From positions 1 through 35,982 of the forward strand of contig CAYOKY010000001.1 of the NCBI GenBank assembly GCA_964404695.1: a DNA stretch of 35,982 nt, written 5' to 3'. Made by a program: the position numbers and the translations under genes. Of this stretch, positions 3,521-34,434 are shown in pieces; the first letter of the stretch is position 1; each line of letters starts with the position of its first letter. The notes below the pieces were generated by a model that was not told where the DNA came from, ran no database searches, and saw only the letters and a program-made list of their open reading frames with translations. Origin of the DNA: Candidatus Micrarchaeota archaeon. Lineage in GTDB: Archaea > Micrarchaeota > Micrarchaeia > Anstonellales > JAGGVH01.

Positions 3521-3522
3521 TT

Positions 3523-6595: not shown

Positions 6596-6650
6596 CGTAA
6601 AACTGTGACCGTAACTGTGACCGTAACTGTGACCGTAACTGTGACCGTAA
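6596..6650. repeat. Tandem repeat, 12-bp unit CGTAACTGTGAC, about 4.5 copies
   Basis: Three perfect copies at 6610-6621, 6622-6633 and 6634-6645. They are flanked by a 14-nt variant (6596-6609) and a partial copy (6646-6650). Confidence 0.9.
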
Positions 6651-6670
6651 AATAGTATATAATCATATTT

Positions 6671-6821: not shown

Positions 6822-6879
6822 TGGTTAAGAGCTAACAATTATGGATGAAGATCATGAATAAACCAGTCATGAAAAAATG

Positions 6880-6888
6880 TTATAAATA
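6880..6888 (+). promoter_or_regulatory. TATA-like box for aCPSF1 (possibly leaderless mRNA)
   Basis: TTATAAATA is centred about 22 bp upstream of ATG 6906, with no SD in between. Confidence 0.3.
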
Positions 6889-6905
6889 ATATGTATCCAT
6901 TATAA

Positions 6906-21000: not shown

Positions 21001-23205
21001 TATGACAAAGAAGTGCTTGCAAAAGAGCAGGACATTAAGAAGGAATTTACAGCAGTTTTGGATGGAAAAGTAAGTAGTTTAGATTCAGACCATAAAAATG
21101 CAGTTATGTCAAAAGCGTTTAAGTATGTAGCACTGGAAATGAACGAAAAGAGAAATCAGGATAACCGATTATTGTATGGGATTGGCAGAAAATTAAGGAC
21201 TGTCCCAGGGATTGCAATTACTATTGCAGTTGGAATAGCAGGTGTTGCACTTGCTCCTGTTTCTGTTGGCGCTTCAGTTGGGTTGCTTAGTGTTTATGCA
21301 CTTGCAAGAGGAGTATCAACTTATATGGGTGTTAACGGTATCATGACTGCTGTCCATAGGGGAATAAGACAAAAAACAGGCGACGTAACCAAAAGGTTGG
21401 GCGCGTCTATCATGTATGGTGTTGATAACAAAGGCGTTAATCAAAACATTGGAAAAAACGTGTCCCTTGTAACTGGCGCAATAAACAGTGCTGTTGAAGA
21501 TGTAGTTGATAAAACAGTGGATGCTGTTGGAGATGCAGTTGATAAAACATCGGGCGTTGTTGGAGATGCAGTTGATAAAACAGTGGATGTTGTTGAAGAC
21601 ACTGCAATTAACGTTGAAAACATTGTTAATGGAATTACTGATTACGCAACCAAGTTTAGAAATTATAAGATCATCAGGCATAGTGTTGGTGCAGTTGCCG
21701 GAATTGCAGCAATATTTTCCGCAAATACATCAGCGAATAATGTCTTTGATTATGCTAAGGATGTAATTGAAAAAGGCCCGATCCAGGCTACAAAAGATGT
21801 AATCGTTGAGGGAGTCCACAACTGGTCATTATTCTTTAAGAAGATGTTTGGCAAAGCAGAAGTTCCCTCAGTTGCTAACGCGGACAGTTTAATTGTTAAT
21901 GATTCAATACATCAAGGCAATATAATTGCTGTATCTAAAGAAGGTTTAGATGTAGCTTCAAAGGGAAGTTTAGATGTAGCTCCAAAGGGAAGTTTAGATG
22001 TAGCTCCAAAGGGAAGTTTAGATGTAGTTCCAAAGGGAAGTTTAGATGTAGCTTCAAATGGAAGTTTAGATGTAGCTTCAAATGGAAGTTTGGGTGTAGT
22101 GTCAGATACTCCTGGAATAGTGCCTAACGAAACTATAACTCCTAGTTCATCTAATGATTCCTTACTTGCACGGGCAAAGGAGTCTTTAATGCAAAAGTTC
22201 TTCCCAGATTCCGATGCATCAGTTGGGAATGTCAATGATATAATTATTTCAGGGGATCCAGTTGTTGCACCTAATTCAGTTGTTGTATCTACTCCAGTTG
22301 TTACACCTACTCCAGTTCCAGTTGTTGCACCTAATTCAGTTGTTGTATCTACTCCAGTTGTTGCACCTACTCCAGTTCCAGTTGTTGCACCTGTTGATAC
22401 TCCTCTTACAAATGTTCCAACTAGCGCAGATTCAGTTACACAGGTACAGACCAGTATGTTAAAAAAAGTGTTTGATAAACCTGCCCCTGGTTCTACAGTT
22501 GTTACAGGTGACTTAGGATTGTCGCAGATAGTTTTGGGTGACTCTCCTTTAGGTGATTCTGCAAATATTTTGGATACAACTGGATTGACAGGTGCACAAT
22601 TAGGTGATACATTATCTGATTCAAGTTTAGTTACAGGTTCAATTGATACACTGCATACTGATACTATTACAAACATTGATTCAGGTTCATTTGTGAGTGA
22701 TGTTGATACCATTATCCCTGCTGATACTATTGCAGGCCTTGATAGTCCTACACCTTTAGACACTACTATTCCTGTGAAGGGAGCAGTTGATGTGTTTAAT
22801 GGAGATAGTGGTGTTGTAAATGTTGTTATGCCTACTGCTACGGCTCAAGTGCTAGAATTTACTGCACATGAAGGCGATGGCATTTGGGATTTATCAGATC
22901 GTGCTTTGAAGTTCCATTTTGGTGAAGCTTACACCAATCTTTCTGCTGGCGACCAAAACCTTTTGACTGACCGTCTTAAAGATGTGTTTGTTGACAATCC
23001 TGGGCTAATTGGCCTGGATACTACTGAAATTTATACTTCTCCAAATCTGGATGGGATAGGTCTTAGGTTACATGCAGTTGCAGAAAAACTTGTGGACAAA
23101 GAAATGATTGACCAGGCGCTTGGTATATTCAAAAATAAGCTTGGTAATACTGCAAAAGTTGCAGGTAATCTTTCCAAGGTAACCAAGGTAAAGATGGGCG
23201 CTTAA
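18070..23205 (+). CDS. Giant (1711 aa) multi-domain membrane protein: MORN-variant/YwqK-like repeats, long helical region, internal TM helices, repeat-rich C-terminal half
   Basis: Uninterrupted 5.1-kb ORF with its own SD, promoter-like box and flanking T-tracts. No N-terminal signal peptide. About 23-aa Y..(N/D)G...Y repeats lie at roughly 18200-18800. The middle is K/E-rich helical. A P/V-rich spacer lies at roughly 19930-20110. Hydrophobic helices lie at roughly 21200-21345 and 21679-21725. Tandem peptide repeats follow downstream. Confidence 0.85.
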   Translation: MARNDGDPPNDESGNSSEVTDRRFDEEQQLWIIRTYSDETKSRITKTVFFNPDNVKTGMREMYSDDRTKYTHYYNDGSIRTETIYSAEGKERYFDDGILESRINYSNNGKKYVMHEYYPGGNDKTDIHYHDDETVSSITNYNPAGKKQSSIRYNEEGKKTSEDGYYPDGTRQIETFYNDDETVNFINYFYPNGKKSKYVSYHNGESLSSETEYNEQEEKIQVINYYDDRSKSVENYEYTSEMTITTTTMFNTDDEQIKMEVETRKNDDNFIGELIAKRVYDKGVLTYNFVTGLDTGSVSTEFYYKPDSNVPSFVKRFDDLNGNVRKLQFDVREENNNFFNNFFINENNIQYAYYHNKQGKLNNIVIRTYKQVEGSEKPVVVKYEDINMSSGKKTTQEYNDDGTNKGRKLKEKLTAEAINDFKQNLYSVYEEVKPELEAFADNLFIITSKKVDVSILSYEAHNKETEIFVAEQKRKETVKVNNTELKRLGNELAEIVAKRTWEDYPNLVNKIKEIKKIAEIGVENNSKPAKKILKKLDWILFAIDEHEQMAGDVTSIPKNKLRADIVSAVEKIPTYIDKVVTKSEDTRTTGEKLMQFMKQPRTFRKRKPVDTFEEVNKEVNEEVVLPVGDAVVAAVVGAVPVEAPVDTVSDPIAEVVEPVDKTPVEPTKPSDKTPIIIAVPETDIELASILSAEDGLEKYDLLQQWVERKYLLATTLNDVERKLNETLRLNDANYADLLLENLNDTKQMLDSEDASIFEDRIKDLIKSVNGKKEKELSSSNATDLFNYEIKLFDDLVGSIRKSKIENAENILLYFKGQIETIYNDINDLGAYTEEKVDGKEKVEKIAEVYIDQTKLDKLSTVVIKTCGLINNMHLNSKSVKGYQKLIDNILQCKISLNDLPPTNTNGIKKETLKMVNLLKTAAGEKKIKPVKPKKEKNKNAEKAEKLEVEVVFNSNEFEVFSKFADLLVAKEKLKKSKYDKEVLAKEQDIKKEFTAVLDGKVSSLDSDHKNAVMSKAFKYVALEMNEKRNQDNRLLYGIGRKLRTVPGIAITIAVGIAGVALAPVSVGASVGLLSVYALARGVSTYMGVNGIMTAVHRGIRQKTGDVTKRLGASIMYGVDNKGVNQNIGKNVSLVTGAINSAVEDVVDKTVDAVGDAVDKTSGVVGDAVDKTVDVVEDTAINVENIVNGITDYATKFRNYKIIRHSVGAVAGIAAIFSANTSANNVFDYAKDVIEKGPIQATKDVIVEGVHNWSLFFKKMFGKAEVPSVANADSLIVNDSIHQGNIIAVSKEGLDVASKGSLDVAPKGSLDVAPKGSLDVVPKGSLDVASNGSLDVASNGSLGVVSDTPGIVPNETITPSSSNDSLLARAKESLMQKFFPDSDASVGNVNDIIISGDPVVAPNSVVVSTPVVTPTPVPVVAPNSVVVSTPVVAPTPVPVVAPVDTPLTNVPTSADSVTQVQTSMLKKVFDKPAPGSTVVTGDLGLSQIVLGDSPLGDSANILDTTGLTGAQLGDTLSDSSLVTGSIDTLHTDTITNIDSGSFVSDVDTIIPADTIAGLDSPTPLDTTIPVKGAVDVFNGDSGVVNVVMPTATAQVLEFTAHEGDGIWDLSDRALKFHFGEAYTNLSAGDQNLLTDRLKDVFVDNPGLIGLDTTEIYTSPNLDGIGLRLHAVAEKLVDKEMIDQALGIFKNKLGNTAKVAGNLSKVTKVKMGA
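21493..21600 (+). repeat. 33-bp in-frame tandem repeat x3.3 (peptide V[EG]DxVDKTxxx)
   Basis: 21493-21525, 21526-21558 and 21559-21591 share GTTGGAGATGCAGTTGATAAAACA cores. Confidence 0.8.
21937..22104 (+). repeat. 24-bp in-frame tandem repeat x7 (peptide [KN]GSLDVA[SP])
   Basis: Seven consecutive 24-nt units, with AAGGGAAGTTTAGATGTAGCTCCA as the core. Copies 2 and 3 are identical; the others differ by 1-5 nt. Confidence 0.95.
22261..22393 (+). repeat. 60-bp in-frame tandem repeat x2.2 (peptide VVAPNSVVVSTPVV[TA]PTPVP)
   Basis: 22261-22320 and 22321-22380 differ at a single base (ACA/GCA). A 13-nt partial third copy follows. Confidence 0.95.
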
Positions 23206-23284
23206 TTTTTTCTTTTTTATTTATTGTTATTTACTTTTATTTACTTTATCCTTATTTTTATCTTCTATGTTTCATTTAGTTTTT

Positions 23285-23332
23285 ATTTTATTTTCTATTT
23301 TATTTTCTATTTTATTTTCTATTTTATTTTCT
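23285..23332. repeat. 12-bp tandem repeat ATTTTATTTTCT x4 in a T-rich spacer
   Basis: Four perfect copies, with degenerate T-rich copies on both sides (23206-23400). It probably also acts as an oligo-T terminator region for the giant gene. Confidence 0.9.
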
Positions 23333-23434
23333 ATTTTTCATTTTATTTTGTTCAATTTATTTTTTTACTTATTTCTGTTTATTGGTTTTTGTCTTTCCGC
23401 AATCAATAAAAACTAATGTAACTATTTATTTATT

Positions 23435-24250
23435 ATGCAAAAGAAGAAATCAATGGGTCAGATTTTCGCAACTGATAATTTGGCAAATCTTATAATTAAA
23501 TATATTACTTCTAAAGTTGACATTAAAGATAGTACAATAATTGAAATCGGTCCCGGGGATGGTAAACTTACAGAAAAATTATTGGAATGCCATCCAAAGA
23601 AACTCATTGCAATTGAAAAGGATTTTGAATATTCACAGTTTGTTAAGAACCGGTTCATAACTAATAACAATTTTGAAAGTATTAATGAGGACGTTTTGGA
23701 ATTTGCTCCAGAACAGGAAAAAATCAAAGTTGATTATGTTATTGGGAACTTGCCTTATAATCTATCTTCATCAATTTTGGAGCATGTTAGAGATTGGGAA
23801 TTTGATTCTGCTTTTTTTATGTTGCAAAAAGAATTTGCACAGCGTATGGTTGCAACACCTGGCAACAATTTTTCCAGGTTGTCTGCTATGACACAATACT
23901 TTTTTGATGTTAAACTTTTGAAAGTTGTATCACACAAGATGTTTATACCAAGACCAAAAGTTGATTCAGCTCTTGTTTATTTGAAAAAGGTTAATGCTAA
24001 GAGTTTAACTGAACAAGAGGAAATTTGTATTAGGAAATTGTATGTTCACCGTAAACAAAAACTGAAGAACGCGATTCAACATAGTTTTAAGGAATTGGAT
24101 AATGAGAGTTTAAAGGAATCTGATAAGATTTTACAACATCTTAATGAAAAATATACGGATGAATTGAACAGTAAACTGTTTTTATTATCTGGGTCTAAGG
24201 TTATTAATATCTGTAAAGAAATTTGTTCAATAATAGATTTGCAAGATTAA
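23435..24250 (+). CDS. ksgA: 16S rRNA (adenine1518/1519-N6) dimethyltransferase KsgA/RsmA/Dim1
   Basis: MGQIFATDN (GQ.F motif), IIEIGPGDGKLT (SAM-binding G-x-G), VIGNLPYNLSS and PRPKVDSALV. Confidence 0.9.
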   Translation: MQKKKSMGQIFATDNLANLIIKYITSKVDIKDSTIIEIGPGDGKLTEKLLECHPKKLIAIEKDFEYSQFVKNRFITNNNFESINEDVLEFAPEQEKIKVDYVIGNLPYNLSSSILEHVRDWEFDSAFFMLQKEFAQRMVATPGNNFSRLSAMTQYFFDVKLLKVVSHKMFIPRPKVDSALVYLKKVNAKSLTEQEEICIRKLYVHRKQKLKNAIQHSFKELDNESLKESDKILQHLNEKYTDELNSKLFLLSGSKVINICKEICSIIDLQD

Positions 24251-24307
24251 ATAGATTTACAAGATTGAATTGATTTACAAGAGTAAATAGATTTGCAAGA
24301 TAGTTAG
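24233..24307 (+). repeat. 18-bp tandem repeat x4 echoing the KsgA 3' end, each copy ending in an in-frame stop
   Basis: ATAGATTTGCAAGATTAA / ATAGATTTACAAGATTGA / ATTGATTTACAAGAGTAA / ATAGATTTGCAAGATAGT+TAG. Confidence 0.95.
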
Positions 24308-24340
24308 TTACTGGATTGATTAGCAGTAATAATTGATTTT

Positions 24341-24379
24341 ATTTGGCTTTAATATTTGGCTTTAATATTTGGCTTTAAT
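24341..24379. repeat. 13-bp tandem repeat ATTTGGCTTTAAT x3
   Basis: Three perfect copies at 24341-24353, 24354-24366 and 24367-24379. Confidence 0.95.
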
Positions 24380-24495
24380 AGTAATGTACTTTATAGGAGG
24401 GTGTGTATTGGTTTGACCAGATTATGACACAATACTTATAAAGGCTTTGTATTGTATTGTATGGTAGAATGTCATTCTAAAATGGAGGTAATTTC

Positions 24496-25371
24496 ATGAA
24501 ATCTAACCGTGGAAATAAAAGTACTATTTGTGGTGAGCAAACAGGTTCATCTGATACTAATTCAAATTTACATAAAACAAATTTAACTAATTTTTCTGGA
24601 CGGAAGTCTATCCGTGCATTTCATGGGCGTGCAATTAAACCTGTTGTTGCAGTTGTAGTTGCTACTATTATCGGCGCTTGTGTGTTAATTTTATCTGCAT
24701 GTTCAAAGTCAATGGGTCCAAAAGAACCTGCTGACAACGGCGTAACATTGAATGTATCTCCTGACACTGTAAAAGTTCCAAGTGCATTTGTTTTAAATAG
24801 TTTAGTTACAAATCCTGATGGTCGTATACAATTGGATGACCGACAACTTTTAGTTATATTATCACAAGGTGGGCATGCAATTGCTGAGACAACCTTGGTG
24901 CCAGATTCTACAAACACAATTATTTTAAAACCAGAGATTGTTGGTAATGGCGATATTAAATGTCGTGTTGCATTGTCTAATATTTATGAGGGCGTTTTTG
25001 AAGCTGAAGATTCAGCAACTATTGTGAACGAAACTGGCGGATGGACATTAAAACCTATTTCACATGTATCCGAAGGGTTCGTTGATACTGTTATGATTCA
25101 TGTTGCTGACAGCACAGTAGACAGCACAGCACTTGAGACAGTAACTTTGACTGTTGTTGGAATGGATGATGACAATGTTCGTTTCAAGATTACAAGTATT
25201 GATTTTGAGGGCAATGAACATATCTTGAATGATGTTATAATTTCACAGGATGAAGCAAGGTTTGAAGCTGTACCTGTTGCAGGCCCGTTCTCTGATGGAA
25301 GGACTTTATACATTTTAGGGCCGGTAATTAATCTTGATGGAACGACATCTTTTCAAGTTGTTTTATTTTAA
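24496..25371 (+). CDS. Putative surface lipoprotein or membrane-anchored beta-rich protein
   Basis: Polar N-terminus, hydrophobic helix VVAVVVATIIGACVLILSAC with lipobox-like L-S-A-C, then a beta-rich domain. SD GGAGGT lies 7 nt upstream. It is the first gene of a co-directional trio. Confidence 0.6.
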   Translation: MKSNRGNKSTICGEQTGSSDTNSNLHKTNLTNFSGRKSIRAFHGRAIKPVVAVVVATIIGACVLILSACSKSMGPKEPADNGVTLNVSPDTVKVPSAFVLNSLVTNPDGRIQLDDRQLLVILSQGGHAIAETTLVPDSTNTIILKPEIVGNGDIKCRVALSNIYEGVFEAEDSATIVNETGGWTLKPISHVSEGFVDTVMIHVADSTVDSTALETVTLTVVGMDDDNVRFKITSIDFEGNEHILNDVIISQDEARFEAVPVAGPFSDGRTLYILGPVINLDGTTSFQVVLF

Positions 25372-25411
25372 ATAATTAAAATTCAGAAATGATGATTAAG
25401 AGGGATTATGT

Positions 25412-28400
25412 ATGATATATAAAAATGTAAATTTACCAAATCTGTTGCCAATCTTCCTGATTGGGGTTTTAGTATTAGGTATCGGCATGTTAAACTTGGC
25501 AGTTGTGCCTATGCAACCGTTTAACGAAAAGATTACTGCGAAAGCTGATGTTGGCGATACTGTTAGTATTCATGATTATATAAAAACTTCAGACGATTCT
25601 GAAGACGACAGTGATATTGATTACAGTCCCCAGATAAATAAGCCTGTAGCTGTAGCAATAAACCCTCATACGCTTATTAAGAATGATTATTCAAAATATT
25701 CTTACAAACCGACAGATTCTGTGCCTAAACCTGTTACCTCTACCGGTACAGTTATCAAGCCACAGTTTTCCGTTGATAAAGATGCTTATCCTGTTAAGGT
25801 TCCTGCAATTGTTTCCCCAGTTGATTTGAATGATACTGAATGTTCTGAAGAGCCGGAAATTAATGTACATATTGCTCCAAGTTATGTTCAGGCAGGTGAA
25901 GATTTTTATGTTTACATTTATGTTCATAATTCCAACCCTCTGGATTGTGAACCTATTGAATATTCATACTCTTTGGATTTACCATCCAGATGGAGTTATG
26001 AAACTGAATCGTCCTCTTCAAATGTTATTGTGTCTTCTGGTTTAACGTCCACTATAATTGCCAGAGTTACACCTGAAAATATTTCTGGGAATTATGATTT
26101 TGATTTAATTGTTGAATATGATGGTGAAGAATACACTGATGAATTAACAGTTACTATTGATACTCGTGAACTTTCAGATATTGATTTACAACCTGATCAT
26201 GTTGACGTTTTAATCGGCGAAGAAATTAATTTTGAAGTTATCGGTTACGATTCATTTGGTAATCTGATAAACATTACTTCTGACATTTGCGAATGGGAAA
26301 CTACAACTGGCGATATTGATAACGGTGTTTTAACTGTTAACGAGTTTGTTAATGGTGAAGTTACAGTTAACTGCAGTGGTCATTCTGATGTTTCAACAGT
26401 TAATGTTACAGGTTGTTTAAGTTATGAACCTACTATTACTGTTAATGCTCCGATTATTGTACCTCAACTTGAAACTTTTGTAATTAATGTTACTATATAT
26501 AATAATGATAATGTATTGTGCGGTTGCACTAACTATTCAATTGACACAAGCCATGAATGGCATAGTTTGATTGGTGATGATCATGTTACTTTGGAAATAT
26601 GTCCAAACGAAACTGCTGATTTGACTTTAGAGTTTACTGCACCTTTGGAATCTGGCGAATATGATTACATTATCAACGTTTCAAATGTTGATGACAATTC
26701 AATTTATACTGATTATTCAAACACTTTGGTTGTAAGCAGTTCACCTGAATTATTCTTGACTGCATCAGATAATGATGTTTATTCTGGTGAATATGTTGAT
26801 TTGTATTACATTTTACAGGATTATGAAGGTAATATGTATGAAGGCGATACTGTTGAATGGACTGTTCTTAACGGTACAGTTGACGGTGATGTTTACATTC
26901 CCTCAGAATATAGTTGCAATGATACAGTTACACTTAATATTACAAAGAATGGTTTTGAATATATTAAACAAGTTAACATTAGTGTTACTAAAATTGACCG
27001 TGTTGAAATTATGCCTGCAAACACAACAGTTGGTGCTGGCAGTGTTATAGGTTATATATACAGGTTATACAGTGATTTGGATGAAGTAATTATTCCTGAA
27101 GATGATTGGTTTGCAATGTTTGATTCTCCTGCCGGTAGATTTAGTGGCAGTCAATTAAGAGCAGAAAACTTAGGTGAACATTATGTTCATGTTATGTTCT
27201 GTGCAAACGATCTTAGACCTTTGGAATTGAGAAGGGCAATGCCTGGTAGTGAATCAATGCCAATTTGCAATGGTAGGATTATTGATGGTTATACTAATGT
27301 AATAGTTAGTACTGGTACTATTGCAACTTTAAGAATTGAACCAAACACTGCGGACGTAGGTCCTGACGGTGAATTGTTTACTGCTTACGGTACCAACAGT
27401 ATGGGTGTTGAAGTTATATTCGTTGCAGACTGGACAGTTGCAGATCCTTATGTTGTCTTTACAACTCCCAATTCTACTATCAATGCAACAGCTTTAGGGT
27501 TTGAAGGCCCAACAGTTTTGACTGCTGATGTAGGTGGTGTTACAGCTGACGCTAATATTAATGTTGACGGTTTAGCTCCAAGGATTGATTATCTTAATCC
27601 TACTCCTGAAGAAGGTTTGATATATGCAAACCCAATAACTTTCAACGTTAGTGTTGATGATGCAAACCTTGTAAATGTTTATTTTGTTGTTGACGGCGTT
27701 GAATACGATGCAACTGTTGTCAGTGGTTATTCAAGTTACAGTTTAGACCTTACAAGTGGCATACATGAGTTAATAGTTTATGCAGTTGACTCGTTTGGCA
27801 ACAGGGCAGAATTGCCTGCAAAAGTGTTTGCAGTAATTGGTGATTCTCTCACTACAATTGTTGAAGATCCTGTTAATGAATCTTATATAACAACTACTGA
27901 AACTGTAAATTTTGTTATTGAAGATTTGAATGGATTAAATGAAATGAATTATTATGTTGATGGTATTTTGACAACTGAGCCGTTGATGGGCAATGACTAT
28001 GAATTGAACATAACTTTGGACACTGTTGGTGACCACGTTATTGAAATAACAGTCTTGGATGAATTGGGCATTTCAACAACATTTGTTTACATTTACCATG
28101 TTGAGCTTGCACCTGTCATTATTTTAGATGAACCTTTGGATGGTAGGTTATTGTTTGATGATACTGTTGGCATGGTTTCAGATGACATAGTTTTCAATGT
28201 TTATGATTCTGATGGTGACATTTTAGGAATCCCACAATATTCTTTTGATAATGTTACATGGTACTATTTCATGGGCATGACTGCTCCAGAATTCTGGCAG
28301 TTGCAAGGTTCAGACCTTGACCCAGTTTCACCTGGTGATGTTATAACTATTTACGTAAGCGCACAGGATGATGATCATCACTGGACTTATGAATCATTTG

Positions 28401-30637
28401 AGTTTGTAATCGTTGAGGGTGATGCGCACGTTGATATGTTGCCAATTTGTGGCAGTGAACTTATTGAAACCGATGTCATTACTATTGATGTAATCCCTGG
28501 CACTTTAATTGTTGACAATATTGGGTGGGATTATGAAATTGGTTACTTAACTGATTTCCCGATTACTGCAGAATTGTATACTGTTCCGATTAATGTTGAT
28601 ACAATTTTCTTTGATGAGAATGTTGAAGGCAACATTACATTAGGTGTAAGATGGTCTGAAAGTCACGGGTTTGACATGACTTGGTATGATTCATTCTGTA
28701 ATTATAATATTAATCACAAGCCAAACATAAATTTGACTTCACATGTAAATGGATCTAATATCTATGGTTCAACTGTCTTAGATTTTAATATTTTGGATTA
28801 TGACGGCATTGATTATGTTACATTTACATGGGACGGCATTTACGAGATTGTTGCTCCAGCACCTTATGATGTTCCTGTTGACTCAAGAATCATGGATGAA
28901 ATTGGTGAACATAACTTAACAGTTTATGTGGTTGACGCTAGTGGTCTTGCTAGAGAGAACAACAAATATTATGTATTTGATATTGTTCAGGGTCCAGGCA
29001 TAATTTGGTCTAATGAAGGCAATGCTACAATACTTATGGATGGCGATAACAATTTAGTAATTGCAGATGAAAATTTGGTTTTCAATATAACTTCAGATTA
29101 TGGCCTTGCAGTTTTAACATACCAGTTTGATAGTGGTCCAGTTAACAATTTATTGCCTTTGGAATCTGGTGAACATACAATTACTATCCCTGCAGATTAT
29201 GGTGAAACTAACATTACAATCTATGCTGGGGATGAGTACGGTTATAGTCACGAGGAAACTTATGATTTGATAATTGAACGTTATCCAAAAATTGTTTCAA
29301 CTAATCCTGCAAACGGTTTTTCAGTTGCTGGGTTGTATGACATAATCTTTGACATTGAGGACAATGATGATGTTATTGGTGAATATTACTGGAATGGTGA
29401 CGAAAGGTCAAGAGAAGTAATGTATGATGAATCTCCAGATTACTTTGTATCAACTTACAGGGCTCATCCTGACATGAATACATTGTACGTTGAGATTTGT
29501 GATGCAGATTATTACGATGTGCTTTGTATTGAACAAAACTATACTTTCATGGGCGAGCTTAATGCGCCTTGGTTTACTGTCAACACTACAAATGAATCGG
29601 TAATTGGTGTTGATGAAGTTATCAATGTTTCAAGCTATGATTCAGTTGGATTGGCATTCTTAAACTATACGTGCAACTTAACTGATTACTCTATCGCATT
29701 AAGTGGCAATGAATCAAATGACAGTTTAGAATGTTCATGGATTGAAGGCGAAAACATTGTTGACATTACTGTTGAAGACAGTGATGGTGTGACTGCAAGT
29801 GACACTTATGTGTTCTATTATGACAACGAGGCACCGCAGATTGTAATGGATTCACCCGTATATACTGATGGTATGACTATCTTGAATGGTGACTGGTTGA
29901 ACTTTAGCATAACTGATACCACAACTGTTACTGTAGTATACTGGTGGGATTTGGATTCAAATATTTCTTTAGCAGATCCTTATGACTTTACAGCACCTAA
30001 CAATCCTGGTGAACACACACTCCATGTTAATGCTAGTGACGGAAGCTTATGGAATCATAAAGAATATAACTTTGTCATAAACGGTTTGCCTAGTTTGCCT
30101 GGCAATATGACTGGTAGAGTTGTAGATACTGAAGGCGATGGTATAAATGCTTCAACTGTAATTTTAATCTATTCAAATGGTACTGTTGCAGGTACAAATA
30201 TGACCAATGATACTGGCTACTACCTATTCAATAGTTTTGATGCTGGGGCATATAGAGTTAATGCTTCAAAAGATGGCTATAAAGATAATTCAATGGCTTG
30301 GTTTATGATTGTTTCTGGTGAAGAAATGCCTGCTGATGATGATATTGAATTAGAACAATATGGTATAATTAAGGTGTATGTAAGGAATATTACTAATCCT
30401 TCAATTCCTATTGATGCAGATGGAGCAGTTGTTGAATTATGGGATTTTGATGCAGATCCTGCTATTAATAGTTCATTATATTTTTGTACTACGAATTCAA
30501 CTGGCAGATGTGAATTTGCTAACGTAGAAGCAGGTGGTTATAAAATTAATGCTTCACTTGGTACTTTAAATAGTACTTTCACTCCGTTTACTGTTGATAT
30601 CGGCGAAATAGAATCTCGTACTGTATTGATTAATTAG
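25412..30637 (+). CDS. Giant (1741 aa) extracellular Ig-like-repeat protein with N-terminal signal-anchor and two C-terminal carboxypeptidase-regulatory-like domains
   Basis: N-terminus LLPIFLIGVLVLGIGMLNLAVVP. A Big_2-like segment reads DIDLQPDHVDVLIGEEINFEVIGYDSFGN...VTVNCSGHSDVSTVNVT. At least 7 modules of about 95-100 aa end in G(E/D)H.(L/I).V.(A/V).D..G. The end reads GRVVDTEGDGINASTV...NDTGYYLFNSFDAGAYRVNASKDGY, which is CarboxypepD_reg-like. Confidence 0.85.
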   Translation: MIYKNVNLPNLLPIFLIGVLVLGIGMLNLAVVPMQPFNEKITAKADVGDTVSIHDYIKTSDDSEDDSDIDYSPQINKPVAVAINPHTLIKNDYSKYSYKPTDSVPKPVTSTGTVIKPQFSVDKDAYPVKVPAIVSPVDLNDTECSEEPEINVHIAPSYVQAGEDFYVYIYVHNSNPLDCEPIEYSYSLDLPSRWSYETESSSSNVIVSSGLTSTIIARVTPENISGNYDFDLIVEYDGEEYTDELTVTIDTRELSDIDLQPDHVDVLIGEEINFEVIGYDSFGNLINITSDICEWETTTGDIDNGVLTVNEFVNGEVTVNCSGHSDVSTVNVTGCLSYEPTITVNAPIIVPQLETFVINVTIYNNDNVLCGCTNYSIDTSHEWHSLIGDDHVTLEICPNETADLTLEFTAPLESGEYDYIINVSNVDDNSIYTDYSNTLVVSSSPELFLTASDNDVYSGEYVDLYYILQDYEGNMYEGDTVEWTVLNGTVDGDVYIPSEYSCNDTVTLNITKNGFEYIKQVNISVTKIDRVEIMPANTTVGAGSVIGYIYRLYSDLDEVIIPEDDWFAMFDSPAGRFSGSQLRAENLGEHYVHVMFCANDLRPLELRRAMPGSESMPICNGRIIDGYTNVIVSTGTIATLRIEPNTADVGPDGELFTAYGTNSMGVEVIFVADWTVADPYVVFTTPNSTINATALGFEGPTVLTADVGGVTADANINVDGLAPRIDYLNPTPEEGLIYANPITFNVSVDDANLVNVYFVVDGVEYDATVVSGYSSYSLDLTSGIHELIVYAVDSFGNRAELPAKVFAVIGDSLTTIVEDPVNESYITTTETVNFVIEDLNGLNEMNYYVDGILTTEPLMGNDYELNITLDTVGDHVIEITVLDELGISTTFVYIYHVELAPVIILDEPLDGRLLFDDTVGMVSDDIVFNVYDSDGDILGIPQYSFDNVTWYYFMGMTAPEFWQLQGSDLDPVSPGDVITIYVSAQDDDHHWTYESFEFVIVEGDAHVDMLPICGSELIETDVITIDVIPGTLIVDNIGWDYEIGYLTDFPITAELYTVPINVDTIFFDENVEGNITLGVRWSESHGFDMTWYDSFCNYNINHKPNINLTSHVNGSNIYGSTVLDFNILDYDGIDYVTFTWDGIYEIVAPAPYDVPVDSRIMDEIGEHNLTVYVVDASGLARENNKYYVFDIVQGPGIIWSNEGNATILMDGDNNLVIADENLVFNITSDYGLAVLTYQFDSGPVNNLLPLESGEHTITIPADYGETNITIYAGDEYGYSHEETYDLIIERYPKIVSTNPANGFSVAGLYDIIFDIEDNDDVIGEYYWNGDERSREVMYDESPDYFVSTYRAHPDMNTLYVEICDADYYDVLCIEQNYTFMGELNAPWFTVNTTNESVIGVDEVINVSSYDSVGLAFLNYTCNLTDYSIALSGNESNDSLECSWIEGENIVDITVEDSDGVTASDTYVFYYDNEAPQIVMDSPVYTDGMTILNGDWLNFSITDTTTVTVVYWWDLDSNISLADPYDFTAPNNPGEHTLHVNASDGSLWNHKEYNFVINGLPSLPGNMTGRVVDTEGDGINASTVILIYSNGTVAGTNMTNDTGYYLFNSFDAGAYRVNASKDGYKDNSMAWFMIVSGEEMPADDDIELEQYGIIKVYVRNITNPSIPIDADGAVVELWDFDADPAINSSLYFCTTNSTGRCEFANVEAGGYKINASLGTLNSTFTPFTVDIGEIESRTVLIN

Positions 30638-30646
30638 GTGATTAAT

Positions 30647-33010
30647 ATGAATATGAAAAATGTATTAATGTTTTTTGTTTCGTTGTTAGTATTCAGCGGA
30701 CTATTATTTTCTGGTTCATTTTTTGGTAAGGTCGTTGATGATGACGGAGCAGCTTTGGAAAATGTTCAAGTTAGTGCTATTAATGGCACTGTTCCTCCTT
30801 CAACTAATTATACTGATTCCTCTGGGGAATTTATTATTAATGATCTCGTTACATCTGACTATTTTTTTGAGTTTTATTATAATGTTGATTATCATACTTT
30901 TACAACGTCAACATTTACTTTAAATATTGCCGATAATATTAATTATACTATTCTTAATGCAGGACCTATAGTTTTAGATAAAAAAGATGAACCTTCTCCT
31001 GGTCCCAGTCCTTCTGGTGATGGTAAATTTTTTGGTAAAGTTCTTAATAAAAGTAATACAACCATTAATATTTCGGGGGCAGATTTATCATTATATAATG
31101 ATGATGGAGATTTAATTGCATCAAACACTTCTGACGTAGATGGAAATTATATTTTGAAGTTTAGTGATGATGATGATTATATCATTAGTGTTTCCGCAGA
31201 CAATTTTATGGGTGATACATTTAATTTTGATGATGTTATTGTTTCAGATAATAATGAGAATTTAGAACTTGAACCAGCAACATTAACCACTTATTCATTT
31301 ACTGGTGTTGTAGAAGAGTATGGTTCCAATATTCCTTTACAGTATGTTAATGTAGATTTAAGTTACCCTAATGGTACTGTAATGAGTGATACTACTAATG
31401 CAAACGGCGAATATTCCTTCCAAGTTGTTGCTGGCAATTATGGTTTAATTAAATTTACTTTGACTGGATATTTAAGTAAAGAAACAAACGTTGGTTACAT
31501 CGGTTTAAATGAAGTTTTCCAGGATATTCAACTTCATAGTTTGTCAATTGAATCAATATTAACAGGCACTGTTACTGATATTGACACTGGTAGTGTACTT
31601 GAAGAAGTTGCAATTACTAATTCATCTGGCGATGTTTTAGATACAACTGATGCAAGTGGGCAATATTCCTTTACAATTGATGAAGGTACATATGATATTA
31701 CTTATGCTTTGATTGGTTATGAATCGCAGACAATTGGGATCTTAATTGGATCTGGCACTAATGTTGAAAACGTTGTACTTGACTCTACTCCTTTTGGTCA
31801 GGTTCATGGTTATGTAACAGATGAAAACGGCGATGGTTTGGATGGTGCAGAAGTTTCAAGTTCAGGTTTTACAAACCTTACAAATGATTCTGGTTATTAC
31901 TTGTTAAATTTACCTAATGGTAGTCGTGATATTGCTGTTTCATTGAATGATTATGATAATGAAATGGAAAAGGTTAATATTGAAGAGGGTATAACTAAGG
32001 AACAAAACTTTACGTTGTCTGTTTCACATGATGATGATAATGATCGTTCATCTTCATCATCAAGAAGAACCAGTTCAACTTCAACAACAACCACTCCTTC
32101 TATTCCTTATACATCTACTACTACAACTGAACTTGACCAGGATGGGTTGCAGGTTGAACGTAAAATCGTTACAGTTAGGGATGAGGAAACTAAGGTTATT
32201 TTAACTATCACTAATTACGGTGATGATGTAGGCCCATTTGAGTTAAGGGAACATCCTCCAAGTTACATTGATGAAAATGATATTTCAGATTATTCTCTTG
32301 ATCCTTATGAAACTGTATCCAGTCCGTTGACTTTGGTATGGAGATTTGACGGTTTGAAAGAAAATGATAAAATTGTTTTTGCATATACTCTTGATAAAGT
32401 TTATAGTACGATGAAAGAGTCACATTTTGATGCAAGCATTTATGATATATCTGCAAGTGTACCTCAACCACAATTGAAAGAGGACAAAGTAATCGTGACT
32501 GCACCTACCAAAGGGTTTGTAGGGGATACGATTACTGTAATTATTACTGAAGAAGACGGTGAACTTTTGCCTAATCAGAATGTTTTAATTGTTTCACCTT
32601 ACCATAATACGTTTACCAAAACAACTAATGATGAAGGTAAAATATCTGTAACTTTGGAGATTGAAGGTGTTTACAGTTATTTGGTGCCTAACAAGGTTTT
32701 GACTGAAGATGCTACAACCGAAGCAGTTTCAAGAAGCCAGGTTCAAATAGTTGAATTGAATGAAACTAATATTACAACTACAGCTCCTAAGAATACAGAT
32801 TTCATTAGTAATTTCATGGCAACGTTGGGTGAACCGGGCATACTTTTGCCTGCAATTGGATTGATTTTCATAGGTATAGTATTGTTCCTTTTTGTCGGTG
32901 CGTATATTGGTTACTTGGCGTTTGCGCCTGAAAAAGAAGAACCTGAAGAAGAAGATAAAGATATGGGTGAAGAATCAATAGTGCTTGAAACAGGAGACCT
33001 TGAAAATTAA
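30647..33010 (+). CDS. Surface protein: signal peptide, 5 carboxypeptidase-regulatory-like domains, S/T-rich linker, beta-rich region, C-terminal TM anchor with acidic tail
   Basis: MNMKNVLMFFVSLLVFSGLLFSG, then G[KTY]V.D..G..L..V.V......T.[DT]..G.Y motifs x5, then DDDNDRSSSSSRRTSSTSTTTTPSIPYTSTTTTE, then PGILLPAIGLIFIGIVLFLFVGAYIGYLAF followed by EKEEPEEEDKD. The start is re-called to ATG 30647 because GTG 30638 lies in the SD AGGTGAT. Confidence 0.85.
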   Translation: MNMKNVLMFFVSLLVFSGLLFSGSFFGKVVDDDGAALENVQVSAINGTVPPSTNYTDSSGEFIINDLVTSDYFFEFYYNVDYHTFTTSTFTLNIADNINYTILNAGPIVLDKKDEPSPGPSPSGDGKFFGKVLNKSNTTINISGADLSLYNDDGDLIASNTSDVDGNYILKFSDDDDYIISVSADNFMGDTFNFDDVIVSDNNENLELEPATLTTYSFTGVVEEYGSNIPLQYVNVDLSYPNGTVMSDTTNANGEYSFQVVAGNYGLIKFTLTGYLSKETNVGYIGLNEVFQDIQLHSLSIESILTGTVTDIDTGSVLEEVAITNSSGDVLDTTDASGQYSFTIDEGTYDITYALIGYESQTIGILIGSGTNVENVVLDSTPFGQVHGYVTDENGDGLDGAEVSSSGFTNLTNDSGYYLLNLPNGSRDIAVSLNDYDNEMEKVNIEEGITKEQNFTLSVSHDDDNDRSSSSSRRTSSTSTTTTPSIPYTSTTTTELDQDGLQVERKIVTVRDEETKVILTITNYGDDVGPFELREHPPSYIDENDISDYSLDPYETVSSPLTLVWRFDGLKENDKIVFAYTLDKVYSTMKESHFDASIYDISASVPQPQLKEDKVIVTAPTKGFVGDTITVIITEEDGELLPNQNVLIVSPYHNTFTKTTNDEGKISVTLEIEGVYSYLVPNKVLTEDATTEAVSRSQVQIVELNETNITTTAPKNTDFISNFMATLGEPGILLPAIGLIFIGIVLFLFVGAYIGYLAFAPEKEEPEEEDKDMGEESIVLETGDLEN

Positions 33011-33540
33011 TTTAACCAGTCTACCTTTTCACTTTTAATTTTTTTAATATTTTTGTCATTTTCCCATTCTTTTATTATGTTCATTACCTTATTCTCAATG
33101 TCTTTTCGTGATTTTAGTTGTATAACCTTTTGATAATTTAATTCTGCATTGTATAAACAATAATCTATCATTTCTGCTTCAATGTTTTGGTTAATCTTCT
33201 TTTCCGGATAATCCCGTTTTGTTAACCGCTTTTTTAATGTTTTAGGATTGCATCTTAATACGATGGTTAAATCGATTTTTAGTTTCATGTCACAACCAAG
33301 GTGGCCGTCTACTATTACATTTTCCTTTGTATTCAGTATCTTATTGATTTCATTTTGCGTTTTTTTAATATTAACGATGTTTGCTCCAAACTCATCTTTT
33401 CCAGTAACATATTTATTTGCTATTTTATTAATTTCTATTATTTGATATTTAATTTTACTTTTTTCATATAACTTTTTTTGTAATGCATGGCTCATTGTAG
33501 TTTTGCCTGTGCCAGGTACTCCAGTTATTAATACTTTCAT
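33007..33540 (-). CDS. fap7: Fap7/AK6-type adenylate kinase-like NTPase (small-subunit ribosome maturation)
   Basis: MKVLITGVPGTGKTT P-loop at the N-terminus, VIVDGHLGC and LTIVLRCNPKTLKKRLTKRDYPEKKINQNIEAEMID match the Fap7 layout. I prefer ATG 33540 over 33582 because the extension would contain the TATA-like box. A 4-bp convergent overlap exists with the upstream gene end. Confidence 0.75.
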   Translation of the reverse strand: MKVLITGVPGTGKTTMSHALQKKLYEKSKIKYQIIEINKIANKYVTGKDEFGANIVNIKKTQNEINKILNTKENVIVDGHLGCDMKLKIDLTIVLRCNPKTLKKRLTKRDYPEKKINQNIEAEMIDYCLYNAELNYQKVIQLKSRKDIENKVMNIIKEWENDKNIKKIKSEKVDWLN

Positions 33541-33561
33541 ATTTTTTAGACGATAGAAATC

Positions 33562-33579
33562 ATTATAAAGCTTTAATAA
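33562..33579. promoter_or_regulatory. Near-palindromic TATA element ATTATAAAGCTTTAATAA shared by divergent genes
   Basis: The TTATAAAG half (33563-33570) is centred about 26 bp from both ATG 33540 (minus strand) and ATG 33592 (plus strand). Neither gene has an SD. Confidence 0.35.
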
Positions 33580-33591
33580 CATAATTTATTT

Positions 33592-34434
33592 ATGAGGAAT
33601 TTATTGTTATTCGTGGTTTTGGGAATTATGCTTTTAATCGTTGTGTCATATTCCGTAGATCAGATGACTTTACAACATTATGTTTATCATCACTTAGGGG
33701 ACAATCAGTATTATTCAATATCTGATGTGGATTGTAATGGTCAATATTATGTTGTATCTCTATCTGGTGAACCGCACATGATTTTAACTGTTGACAGTTA
33801 TGATCTGCCTGTTGTTGTCAAGGATAAACAAACATTACAAAAGGTTTTGGTTTGTTATTATAATTTAAACGTTCAGGATTCGTCAGCATATTTGAACAGT
33901 TCAATCCAGAACTATATGGCTTTCTATAACTCAACTGTGAACGAATATTATTCAGATAATTGTGTTAAGTTTCTTGGACTGCACAAGAATTGGTGTAACG
34001 ACGTTGAATCATGTCGTTATGTTTGTTTTCAAAAAGGTATAACTTGCCAGCCTGTTATGTTGGCTTTACGCTGGGATTTTTTGGATGCAATGGTTGATTA
34101 TGCAGACAACAGTTTAATTGTTAATTCTTCTAAGTTCGAGTATACTATCTCGGACTTCAATTCCGCAGAGGATTATAAGCAATATGTTGATAGTTTGGGT
34201 TTGCTTTGTTCAGTTAAGAATAATTATTTGAATAATCCTATAATAAACAGGTGGAGATTCTGTGGCATGCCTGAATATGATTGGGATAAGGTTGAACAGG
34301 CTTATGTTAACGGGTTGAAAGCGTATTATTCAGCTTATCCTGAACAATCTCTGGATAAGTTAAGTTCTGATATAATCTATAATACTGAACAAAGGGTACT
34401 TATGTTCAGGTCTAACAATTATTTTAAAAGGTAA
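33592..34434 (+). CDS. Cys-rich secreted or membrane-anchored hypothetical protein
   Basis: N-terminal hydrophobic helix LLLFVVLGIMLLIVVSY. About 10 Cys, including WCNDVESCRYVCFQKGITC. No recognisable family. Confidence 0.55.
   Translation: MRNLLLFVVLGIMLLIVVSYSVDQMTLQHYVYHHLGDNQYYSISDVDCNGQYYVVSLSGEPHMILTVDSYDLPVVVKDKQTLQKVLVCYYNLNVQDSSAYLNSSIQNYMAFYNSTVNEYYSDNCVKFLGLHKNWCNDVESCRYVCFQKGITCQPVMLALRWDFLDAMVDYADNSLIVNSSKFEYTISDFNSAEDYKQYVDSLGLLCSVKNNYLNNPIINRWRFCGMPEYDWDKVEQAYVNGLKAYYSAYPEQSLDKLSSDIIYNTEQRVLMFRSNNYFKR

What the first reader, a model, noticed from the sequence alone, without database searches (positions are those of the whole stretch)
24496..33010. Three-gene cell-surface module: lipobox protein, 1741-aa Ig-like-repeat giant and 790-aa multi-beta-sandwich anchor protein
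The genes are co-directional with 40-bp and 9-bp gaps, and each has an SD, so this is probably one operon of 8.5 kb, about a quarter of the window. Gene 1 has an L-S-A-C lipobox after a TM helix. Gene 2 has a signal-anchor, a Big_2-like domain, at least 7 modules of ~95-100 aa ending in G(E/D)H.L.V.A.D..G, and two carboxypeptidase-regulatory-like domains. Gene 3 has a signal peptide, five more such domains, an S/T-rich linker, a beta-rich region and a C-terminal TM helix with an acidic cytoplasmic tail. I recognise no catalytic domain. The set looks like a membrane-anchored base (gene 3), a lipid-anchored partner (gene 1) and a very long projecting element (gene 2). That would fit an S-layer substitute or a host-adhesion apparatus of an episymbiotic archaeon.
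Basis: partly seen in the sequence, partly recalled or inferred. Interest (0 to 1): 0.7.

Follow-up and report, generated by a model that had tools for sequence, protein, structure and literature searches.

The report
Conserved three-gene surface-fibre operon in Micrarchaeota
Three tightly packed genes in a small DPANN-type archaeon encode three membrane-tethered proteins built almost wholly of antibody-like folds, and the set recurs in related Micrarchaeota genomes, so it is probably one cell-surface assembly of untested function.

Summary
There are three co-directional ORFs (24496-25371, 25412-30637, 30647-33010) with a 40-nt and a 9-nt gap, and each has a Shine-Dalgarno site. Gene 1 has a hydrophobic segment ending in LSAC. 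Gene 2 has an N-terminal TM helix and 17 beta-sandwich domains: two CARDB-like, four Big_2-like, nine Big_7/PKD-like and two CarboxypepD_reg. Gene 3 has a signal peptide, five CarboxypepD_reg domains, an S/T hinge, two conserved beta-sandwiches, a TM helix and an acidic tail. No catalytic domain was found.

New result: the set is co-conserved. All five gene-3 homologues lie directly after a gene-2 homologue. A lipobox-type gene precedes gene 2 in all three lineages where upstream DNA exists. Two of the related contigs are labelled Candidatus Micrarchaeota.

Genes 2 and 3 are very acidic (pI 4.05). Gene 2 is 2.5-fold enriched in N-glycosylation sequons. In both proteins the membrane-proximal ends are the most conserved and the distal CarboxypepD_reg ends diverge fastest.

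Best reading: a membrane-anchored, glycosylated fibrillar surface complex for adhesion or host contact. An S-layer substitute is less likely. Complex formation and function are inferred. I rate it a new variant of a known kind, of moderate interest.

The parts
24436..24489 (+). Putative archaeal promoter and ribosome-binding region of gene 1: TTATAAA at 24436-24442 and SD GGAGGT at 24484-24489
   Evidence: Read directly from the sequence. The promoter role is inferred and not tested.
24496..25371 (+). Gene 1: 291-aa acidic, beta-rich protein with a lipobox-type N-terminus and no Pfam family
   Evidence: The only real homologue among 1.84 billion representative proteins is P0013 (E 1.9e-4), which is encoded at the head of the orthologous trio.
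24640..24702 (+). Gene 1 hydrophobic segment (aa 49-68) and lipobox L-S-A-C (aa 66-69)
   Evidence: Cys69 is an invariant alignment column and is the only Cys in both counterpart proteins.
25412..30637 (+). Gene 2: 1741-aa protein, pI 4.05, net charge -236, with 49 N-X-S/T sequons
   Evidence: Collinear orthologues of 1696 aa and 1377 aa, plus two partial ones.
25445..25510 (+). Gene 2 N-terminal TM helix (signal anchor or uncleaved signal peptide)
   Evidence: It is 54% identical to the AUK095 orthologue, and the following P-x-x-P-F is conserved.
25517..25852 (+). Gene 2 membrane-proximal P/S/T/D/K-rich linker (aa 36-147), variable in length among orthologues
   Evidence: Alignment.
25853..27565 (+). 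Gene 2 N-terminal domain block A1-B1-A2-B2-B3-B4: two CARDB-like and four Big_2-like beta-sandwich domains
   Evidence: The B-type profile hits LigA/LigB, a teneurin-like protein and an S-layer Ig domain. The A type gives only weak CARDB/PKD hits.
27575..30085 (+). Gene 2 stalk: nine Big_7/PKD-like Ig modules of 83-100 aa ending in G-x-H-x-L-x-V-x-A-x-D-x-x-G
   Evidence: Orthologues carry 9, 6 and at least 5 modules.
30104..30628 (+). Gene 2 C-terminal pair of CarboxypepD_reg domains, the least conserved part of the protein
30647..33010 (+). Gene 3: 787-aa type-I membrane protein, pI 4.05
   Evidence: Four full-length homologues exist, each directly downstream of a gene-2 homologue.
30716..32020 (+). 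Gene 3 arm: five CarboxypepD_reg (transthyretin-like) domains
32021..32116 (+). Gene 3 S/T/D-rich hinge. It is present in all five homologues, but its sequence is not conserved.
32117..32746 (+). Gene 3 conserved membrane-proximal pair of beta-sandwich domains (motifs FELREHPPS and PLTLVWRF), with no sequons
   Evidence: Identity to L008 is 74% for the first domain and 56% for the second.
32840..33007 (+). Gene 3 TM helix (aa 732-759) and acidic cytoplasmic tail carrying an E-S-I-V-L-E-T-G motif
   Evidence: The motif is conserved in the window, L008 and AUK095; the tail is basic in the other subclade.

Best explanation
This is a conserved, probably polycistronic three-gene module of a Micrarchaeota-like DPANN archaeon. 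It encodes a membrane-anchored, heavily glycosylated, strongly acidic fibrillar surface assembly.

Gene 2 is the long fibre. It has an N-terminal TM helix and a flexible linker, followed by 17 beta-sandwich domains in series. If each is about 3.5-4 nm long, as is typical of Ig-like domains (my own estimate), the extended chain would be roughly 60 nm.

Gene 3 is a shorter companion. A C-terminal TM helix holds a conserved two-domain base, and a hinge connects that base to an arm of five CarboxypepD_reg domains.

Gene 1 is a small lipobox-type, membrane-tethered accessory protein.

In both large proteins the membrane-proximal ends are conserved and the distal CarboxypepD_reg ends diverge fastest. 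I therefore infer that the distal ends face the outside. Their likely role is contact with other cells, the host or surfaces, which would make this an adhesin-like function. The conserved, sequon-free base of gene 3 would be where the partners meet.

Shown: the anatomy, the topology signals, the co-conservation, the acidity, the sequon enrichment and the conservation gradient.

Inferred: co-transcription, physical association, orientation and adhesion.
For: Gene order and short gaps with SD sites occur in the window and in the orthologous loci.

Full trios were found in two further lineages:
- Micrarchaeota AUK095: 256, 1696 and 1004 aa by the ORF lists, or 996 aa for gene 3 as called on L006.
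- A composite of L005 and L001, which overlap over 2593 nt at 99.3% identity: 239, 1377 and 824 aa.

The gene-2/gene-3 pair also occurs in L008 and L009. So 5 of 5 gene-3 homologues follow a gene-2 homologue.

Flanking genes differ between lineages, so the module is kept together as a unit.

The domain content is of the stalk type seen in Bap, LigA/B, SdrD and collagenase PKD domains.

Genes 2 and 3 have pI 4.05, against 5.65-10.4 for the 14 Pfam-annotated cytoplasmic proteins of the window, 12 of which lie between 6.6 and 10.4.

Gene 2 has 49 sequons against 19.2 +/- 4.0 in composition-matched shuffles; 0 of 500 shuffles reached 49.

Conservation gradient:
- Gene 2 TM helix 54% identical, gene 2 CarboxypepD_reg pair 27-33%.
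- Gene 3 base and TM helix 56-75%, gene 3 distal CarboxypepD_reg domains 23-35%.

The module number varies among orthologues (9, 6, at least 5).
Against: There is no expression, proteomic or imaging data.

No recognisable ligand-binding tip domain was found.

Gene 2's N-terminal helix might be a cleaved signal peptide, which would reverse the geometry.

Gene 1's Cys lies at residue 69, after a 47-aa N-region, which is atypical for a lipoprotein.

The gene-1 counterpart in the third lineage is not significantly similar in sequence.

The AF2 model of gene 1 failed (pLDDT 35). The model of the gene 3 base is only moderate (pLDDT 61).

The 40-nt gap between genes 1 and 2 contains TTTTATTTT and a TATA-like TTTAAATA, so a separate transcript for genes 2-3 cannot be excluded.
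Confidence: 0.5

Rival explanations
1. A bipartite S-layer of the SlaA/SlaB type. Gene 2 would be the secreted canopy subunit, with its N-terminal helix cleaved. Gene 3 would be the membrane stalk that holds it. Gene 1 would be an assembly factor.
For: A large gene is followed by a smaller gene with a C-terminal anchor. Both proteins are acidic, multi-Ig and sequon-rich. Gfrerer et al. note that the Micrarchaeota S-layer protein may need a separate stalk protein with a TM domain (bioRxiv 10.1101/2021.04.28.441871).
Against: There is no sequence match to any solved S-layer protein, including SlaA and SlaB. There is no S_layer_N hit. The gene 3 base model shows only strands and the TM helix, with no coiled-coil stalk. 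Gene 2's N-terminal helix is conserved and is followed by Pro, which is unfavourable for signal peptidase I (established knowledge). The module is rare: there are five gene-3 lineages in 5.8 billion clusters plus two contig collections. The number of stalk modules varies, which is typical of fibres rather than lattices.
Confidence: 0.15
2. Three co-expressed but physically independent surface proteins. They would be kept adjacent by shared regulation or a shared secretion and glycosylation schedule, not because they form one apparatus.
For: Each protein has its own membrane anchor and its own SD site. No docking peptide or interface could be identified. Gene 1 diverges much faster than the others: 25% identity by BLASTP (29% in the MAFFT alignment) against about 40%.
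Against: The strict order and adjacency are kept across lineages that share only 25-30% identity, while the flanking genes change. The stop codon and the next SD overlap in several lineages. The sequon-free, highly conserved base of gene 3 suggests a buried protein-protein surface.
Confidence: 0.25
3. An envelope spacer or strut. Gene 3, perhaps with gene 2, would be a rigid rod of transthyretin-like domains that sets the distance between the membrane and the outer layer, as eukaryotic NOMO is proposed to do in the ER lumen.
For: CarboxypepD_reg arrays followed by a C-terminal TM helix are the NOMO-like layout. The precomputed Pfam list for genes 2 and 3 includes PF22904, NOMO1-like_2nd. Seven domains of about 3.5-4 nm (my estimate) would span about 25 nm, and the pseudoperiplasm of Ca. 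Micrarchaeum harzensis measures 20-25 nm.
Against: The resemblance is at fold level only. The fast-evolving distal domains and the flexible S/T hinge argue against a precise ruler. Gene 2 is much longer than the gap.
Confidence: 0.1

Closest known systems
SlaA/SlaB two-component S-layer of Sulfolobales
   Same: Adjacent co-directional genes. A large multi-Ig glycoprotein is followed by a smaller protein with beta-sandwich domains and a C-terminal TM helix.
   Different: No sequence similarity. No coiled-coil was seen in gene 3. Gene 2 carries its own conserved N-terminal TM helix. There is a third, lipobox-type gene. The architecture is beads on a string with a variable repeat number.
Fibrillar adhesins with Ig-like stalks (Bap, SdrD B repeats, Leptospira LigA/LigB, collagenase PKD domains)
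   Same: The repeat-module profile matches Bap at 1e-9, collagenase PKD-like domains at about 2e-5 and LigA at 1e-6. Pfam SdrD_B is hit at 1.3e-9. The stalk is long, acidic and variable in length.
   Different: The host is an archaeon. The anchor is a TM helix rather than sortase or a type I secretion retention module. No adhesive tip domain was recognised. The protein comes with two conserved partner genes.
Micrarchaeota S-layer protein SLP_Mh (Micr_00292; PF05123 S_layer_N)
   Same: Relatives of the same phylum. It is also an acidic, glycosylated envelope protein with an ambiguous N-terminal TM helix or signal peptide.
   Different: It belongs to a different family. None of the three genes hits S_layer_N or any S-layer model. 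SLP_Mh homologues were reported in nearly all Micrarchaeota genomes, whereas this module is rare.
Putative SlaB-like and other multi-Ig surface proteins of Nanobdella aerobiophila (MJ1_0707 and others)
   Same: DPANN surface proteins with 4-7 Ig-like folds, many sequons and a C-terminal TM helix. They have been proposed as anchors or host-interaction factors (bioRxiv 10.1101/2023.10.27.564410).
   Different: No homology has been shown. Those genes are not described as a conserved operon with a giant partner and a lipoprotein.
Eukaryotic NOMO (rod of transthyretin/Ig-like domains with a C-terminal TM helix)
   Same: An array of CarboxypepD_reg-like domains followed by a single C-terminal TM helix and a short tail. 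The precomputed Pfam lists include PF22904.
   Different: The resemblance is only at domain-fold level. No NCLN or TMEM147 partners are present. It belongs to a different domain of life and a different compartment. The NOMO function cited here is from my own knowledge.

Membership tests
CarboxypepD_reg (PF13620) domain proteins | Score above the Pfam gathering threshold for the transthyretin-like regulatory domain | tested here: met
   Gene 3 scores 141.3 bits against 32.3, in 5 stretches. Gene 2 scores 50.4 bits. The profile hits the regulatory domain of carboxypeptidase D in the PDB at 4.8e-9.
Big_2 (PF02368) Ig-like domains | Significant match to the Big_2 model or to solved Big_2 domains | tested here: inconclusive
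   The window's own four B-type domains give no Pfam hit. Three of 16 orthologous copies hit Big_2, the best at 7.4e-9. The family profile hits LigA at 1e-6.
Big_7 / PKD-like Ig modules | Significant match of the repeat unit | tested here: met
   Big_7 is hit at 4.5e-6 on the whole protein. Of 33 modules, 11 hit Big_7 and 5 hit PKD. PDB hits include Bap, GH9 Ig and collagenase PKD domains.
Lipobox lipoproteins | [LVI][ASTVI][GAS]C at the end of the hydrophobic region, with a conserved Cys | tested here: met
   LSAC lies at aa 66-69. The Cys is invariant in the three-way alignment and is the only Cys in both counterparts, which read GSGC and FTGC.
Lipobox lipoproteins | Short signal peptide, with the Cys within about the first 35 residues (PROSITE PS51257 rule, from my own knowledge) | tested here: not met
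   The Cys lies at residue 69, 52 and 48 in the three proteins, after basic N-regions of 30-48 aa. No alternative in-frame start exists.
Lipobox lipoproteins | Lipidation machinery (AliA/AliB, arCOG02177) present in the genome | not testable with these tools
   Only a 36-kb contig is available. AliA and predicted lipoproteins are reported as common in DPANN (PMC12462473).
SlaA/SlaB S-layer | Sequence homology to SlaA or SlaB | tested here: not met
   Gene 2 gives no PDB sequence hit at E <= 0.01. The gene 3 profile hits only CarboxypepD_reg-type domains.
SlaA/SlaB S-layer | Stalk subunit with a coiled-coil trimerisation region before the C-terminal TM helix | tested here: not met
   The AF2 model of gene 3 aa 491-787 shows only strands plus the TM helix. 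The model is of moderate quality.
SlaA/SlaB S-layer | Forms a two-dimensional lattice and is the dominant envelope protein | not testable with these tools
   This needs imaging and proteomics.
Archaeal S_layer_N / SLP_Mh family | PF05123 or TIGR01564/TIGR01567 S-layer domain | tested here: not met
   No such hit was found in Pfam at E <= 0.1 or in NCBIfam at E <= 1.
PGF-CTERM / archaeosortase substrates | C-terminal PGF-type motif, a TM helix and a very short basic tail | tested here: not met
   No NCBIfam sorting-signal hit was found. Gene 3 has a tail of about 30-95 residues after the TM helix.
Fibrillar adhesins | Repeated stalk domains plus a cell anchor | tested here: met
   Gene 2 has 17 tandem beta-sandwich domains and an N-terminal TM helix.
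Fibrillar adhesins | A recognisable adhesive or ligand-binding domain | tested here: not met
   No lectin, vWA, thioester or other binding domain was found in Pfam, NCBIfam or the PDB.

The most novel reading that the evidence does not exclude
The trio is a previously undescribed, lineage-specific envelope apparatus of a Micrarchaeota subgroup. Three differently anchored proteins (lipid or N-terminal anchor, N-terminal TM helix, C-terminal TM helix) would assemble on the conserved base of gene 3 and project variable CarboxypepD_reg tips that dock onto the host cell. The conserved cytoplasmic tails would couple the contact site to the cytoplasm. These tails are the net +7 to +9 N-terminal tail of gene 1 and the acidic tail of gene 3 with its E-S-[IF]-V-x-E-T-G motif. 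That would make the trio a molecular handle on DPANN-host attachment.
Probability: 0.15. Interest if true: 0.75.

Novelty: new variant of a known kind. Interest (0 to 1): 0.45.

Why it matters
How DPANN archaea attach to and communicate with their hosts is largely unknown at the molecular level, and published candidates are single proteins picked by fold prediction. A conserved operon gives a concrete, testable candidate for an envelope or attachment structure in Micrarchaeota. Its features are three distinct anchoring modes, a fast-evolving outer end and a strongly conserved membrane-proximal base. Gene 1 and the base of gene 3 are also new protein families with no Pfam model. If the module turns out to be only a set of generic surface proteins, the result is still a useful annotation of about 8.5 kb of hypothetical sequence.

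Tried and rejected
- Self-BLAST of gene 2 found no repeats, because the modules are only 16-33% identical. An iterated HMM was needed.
- There are no DNA tandem repeats inside gene 2, so the modules are old and are not a recent expansion or a phase-variation tract.
- tRNA and Rfam scans of the window were empty.
- The sigma-70 promoter and terminator scan was at chance level and does not apply to archaea.
- The AF2 model of gene 1 was unusable (pLDDT 35), so no fold search was run on it.
- The Foldseek search with the gene 3 base model gave only generic tandem beta-sandwich matches such as transglutaminase barrels, macroglobulin and pilins, with TM-scores of 0.2-0.3.
- The A-type domains gave only isolated weak CARDB/PKD hits.
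- The 239-aa protein upstream of the gene-2 homologue in L005 could not be shown to be homologous to gene 1. BLAST gave E 0.32 against gene 1 and 0.002 against P0013; the family HMM gave E 0.53 among 106 ORFs. I treat it as a positional and architectural counterpart only.
- P0014, a hit to gene 1, is a low-complexity repeat protein and was discarded.
- The remote hits P0003 (S8 protease with Ig repeats), P0005 and P0010 have no trio context.
- Literature searches found no description of this module.
- The organism could not be placed taxonomically beyond 'archaeon whose trio relatives are Micrarchaeota MAGs'.


Full report
**Context.** The window is an archaeal contig. It encodes TBP, ribosomal protein L21e, a proteasome subunit, FttA/aCPSF1, class-I LysRS, Kae1 and tRNA-splicing endonuclease. 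GC content is about 33% throughout, with no compositional break at the finding. No tRNA or Rfam RNA is present.

**Observation.**
- The three ORFs are at the stated coordinates.
- Gene 1 (24496-25371) is preceded by GGAGGT at 24484-24489 and a TTATAAA box at 24436-24442.
- Gene 2 (25412-30637) follows after 40 nt, with GAGGG at 25400-25404.
- Gene 3 starts at ATG 30647. Its SD, AGGTGAT (30636-30642), overlaps the gene 2 stop codon.

**Topology signals.**
- Gene 1 has one hydrophobic segment (aa 50-68) ending in L-S-A-C69.
- Gene 2 has one TM helix, at aa 14-32.
- Gene 3 has an N-terminal signal-type segment, a TM helix at aa 732-759 and a 28-aa acidic tail.

**Domain anatomy of gene 2.**
- Pfam finds CarboxypepD_reg at aa 1566-1627 and Big_7 at aa 819-878.
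A ninth (aa 1001-1102) is recognised in the AUK095 orthologue.
- The module profile matches Bap, a GH9 Ig module, a 'bacterial immunoglobulin domain' and collagenase PKD-like domains in the PDB. Of 33 modules, 11 hit Big_7 and 5 hit PKD.
- The region before the stalk is A1-B1-A2-B2-B3-B4.
- The B type is Big_2-like: the profile hits LigA at 1e-6, and 3 of 16 copies hit Pfam Big_2.
- The A type gives only weak CARDB/PKD hints.
- A jackhmmer run on the CarboxypepD_reg unit defines two copies at the end of gene 2 and five in gene 3.

**Domain anatomy of gene 3.**
- After an S/T/D-rich hinge come two beta-sandwich domains. The AF2 model has mean pLDDT 61 and is all-strand plus the TM helix. Foldseek matches are generic.

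**Gene 1 and catalytic domains.**
- Gene 1 has no family hit, and its AF2 model failed.
- No catalytic domain appears anywhere in the three proteins.

**Co-conservation.** This is the main new result.
- The only full-length homologue of gene 3 in the word-indexed search, P0009, lies 27 nt downstream of a large truncated ORF. That ORF is collinear with the C-terminal 650 aa of gene 2, including its two CarboxypepD_reg domains.
- An exhaustive HMMER search with gene 1 against 1.84 billion representatives found one real homologue, P0013 (256 aa, E 1.9e-4). Its contig carries the whole trio: 256 aa, then 1696 aa with no gap, then 996 aa after 25 nt.
- The same locus occurs in GTDB as 'Candidatus Micrarchaeota archaeon isolate AUK095'.
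- P0004, a gene-2 homologue from another Micrarchaeota MAG (GCA_021163225.1), runs off its contig. That contig overlaps the P0009 contig over 2593 nt at 99.3% identity. Together they give a third trio of 239, 1377 and 824 aa.
- Two metagenome contigs, L008 and L009, carry the gene-2/gene-3 pair but are cut at the 5' end.
- So 5 of 5 gene-3 homologues directly follow a gene-2 homologue. In 3 of 3 cases with upstream DNA, a small lipobox-type gene precedes gene 2.
- The junctions are as tight as in the window. In AUK095 the gene 1 stop abuts the gene 2 ATG, with GGAGGGG inside gene 1, and the gene 2 stop is part of GAGGTGATC.
- Flanking genes differ between lineages, apart from a convergent AAA_18 kinase shared by the window and AUK095.

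**Caveat on gene 1.** The 239-aa protein of the third lineage has the same layout: a basic N-tail, a hydrophobic segment, a single Cys in an F-T-G-C box and a beta-rich acidic body. It is not significantly similar in sequence. Cys69 is an invariant column, and it is the only Cys in both counterparts.

**Physico-chemical and evolutionary features.**
- Genes 2 and 3 have pI 4.05 and only 2.9% and 4.6% K+R. The 14 Pfam-annotated cytoplasmic proteins of the contig have pI 5.65-10.4, and 12 of them lie between 6.6 and 10.4, so the acidity is not a proteome-wide halophile signature.
- Gene 2 has 49 N-X-S/T sequons against 19.2 +/- 4.0 in shuffles (z = 7.4, 0 of 500 shuffles). Cytoplasmic proteins show no excess.
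- Per-domain identities show a gradient. In gene 2 the TM region (54%) and several stalk modules (45-73%) are conserved, while the terminal CarboxypepD_reg pair is the most divergent (27-33%).
- In gene 3 the base domain (74% and 59%) and the TM helix (75% and 54%) are the most conserved, and the distal CarboxypepD_reg domains the least (23-35%). The base domains contain no sequons.
- The number of stalk modules differs among orthologues (9, 6, at least 5). In two lineages the first gene 3 domain carries an insertion of about 150 aa.
- The cytoplasmic tail of gene 3 is acidic, with E-S-[IF]-V-x-E-T-G, in the window, L008 and AUK095. It is basic in the other subclade.

**Interpretation.**
- The data establish a conserved module of three membrane-tethered extracellular proteins built from stalk-type beta-sandwich domains.
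- I infer that they act together, that the conserved sequon-free base of gene 3 is a protein-protein platform, and that the variable CarboxypepD_reg ends point outward.
- The most economical function is a glycosylated fibrillar adhesin-like assembly.
- Whether gene 2 stays tethered by its N-terminal helix or is released and held by gene 3 is open. The helix is conserved and is followed by P-x-x-P-F, which is unfavourable for signal peptidase I by established knowledge.
- Lipidation of gene 1 is plausible. Predicted lipoproteins and AliA are reported as common in DPANN (PMC12462473). But the 47-aa N-region is atypical, so an uncleaved type-II anchor is an alternative.

**Comparison with known systems.**
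- The SlaA/SlaB S-layer is the closest organisational analogue, but homology and the coiled-coil stalk were tested and not found.
- The experimentally supported Micrarchaeota S-layer protein, SLP_Mh, carries S_layer_N (PF05123). It was reported in nearly all Micrarchaeota genomes (bioRxiv 10.1101/2021.04.28.441871). None of the three genes matches that family, and this module is rare, so an S-layer substitute is unlikely.
- That paper also notes that SLP_Mh may need an unidentified TM stalk protein. Gene 3 has the right layout for such a role, but no homologue from the cultured strains was returned by the word-indexed protein search or the pattern-based contig scans.
- Multi-Ig proteins with C-terminal TM helices have been proposed as anchors or host-contact factors in Nanobdella (bioRxiv 10.1101/2023.10.27.564410), though not as a conserved operon.
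- I found no paper that describes this trio.

**Verdict.**
- It is a new variant of a known kind: archaeal multi-Ig surface proteins, here as a conserved tripartite operon with two new families.
- Interest is moderate, because the function remains inferred.

Noticed in passing
window 18070-23205 (+): A second giant ORF of 1711 aa has no Pfam or NCBIfam hit. It has N-terminal Y-x-D-G-type short repeats and hydrophobic segments near aa 1020-1060. It also has in-frame DNA tandem repeats at 21944-22099 (24 nt x 6.5, encoding KGSLDVAP) and 22257-22392 (60 nt x 2.3). It is not adjacent to the trio in the other lineages.
   Followed up: partly
window 33592-34434, 34536-35600, 35597-35950 (+); L008 10714-13020 (-): Three ORFs have N-terminal hydrophobic segments. 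The last two begin K/R-G-(Q/F) followed by a hydrophobic stretch, which looks like class-III (type IV pilin-like) signal peptides. None has a family hit. Orthologues at 45-58% identity are clustered in L008, but 5-8 kb away from gene 3 and on the other strand.
   Followed up: partly
window 33007-33582 (-); L007 10944-11477 (-); L008 5078-5371 (-) and 12997-13491 (+): An AAA_18 kinase gene converges on gene 3 and overlaps its end by 4 nt. The same arrangement occurs in AUK095 (54% identity). L008 has only a short AAA_18-like remnant directly after gene 3, plus a full copy 8 kb away, which suggests a rearrangement or insertion there.
   Followed up: partly
window 24232-24301 and 24340-24380: Two tandem-repeat arrays lie in the 245-nt region upstream of gene 1: 18 nt x 3.9 (AATAGATTTACAAGATTA) and a perfect 13 nt x 3.2 (TATTTGGCTTTAA). 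Both lie upstream of the TTATAAA box and may be regulator binding sites.
   Followed up: no
window 23217-23364: T-rich tandem repeats with periods of 10-14 nt fill the spacer between the 1711-aa ORF and the KsgA gene.
   Followed up: no
L012 (AKVG01000026.1) 2320-9121: P0010 is a remote CarboxypepD_reg hit to gene 3. It is a 1334-aa PQQ_2 plus CarboxypepD_reg protein that lies next to genes with His1_capsid hits. It is therefore probably an adhesion protein of an archaeal spindle-shaped virus or provirus.
   Followed up: no
window 12128-12289 (+): A 53-aa ORF has two CxxC pairs and a basic tail and looks like ribosomal protein L40e. The surrounding 12.3-13.5 kb is very AT-rich and has only short ORFs.
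   Followed up: no
L008 1-86: The gene-2 homologue in L008 is interrupted by stop codons in the first 86 nt of the contig. This is either an assembly artefact at the contig end or a disrupted gene.
   Followed up: no
L004 90-9140: P0003 is a 3016-aa protein that shares the Ig modules of gene 2 but carries a Peptidase_S8 domain. It lies next to hydrogenase and aldehyde-ferredoxin-oxidoreductase genes, so it has a different architecture and context.
   Followed up: no
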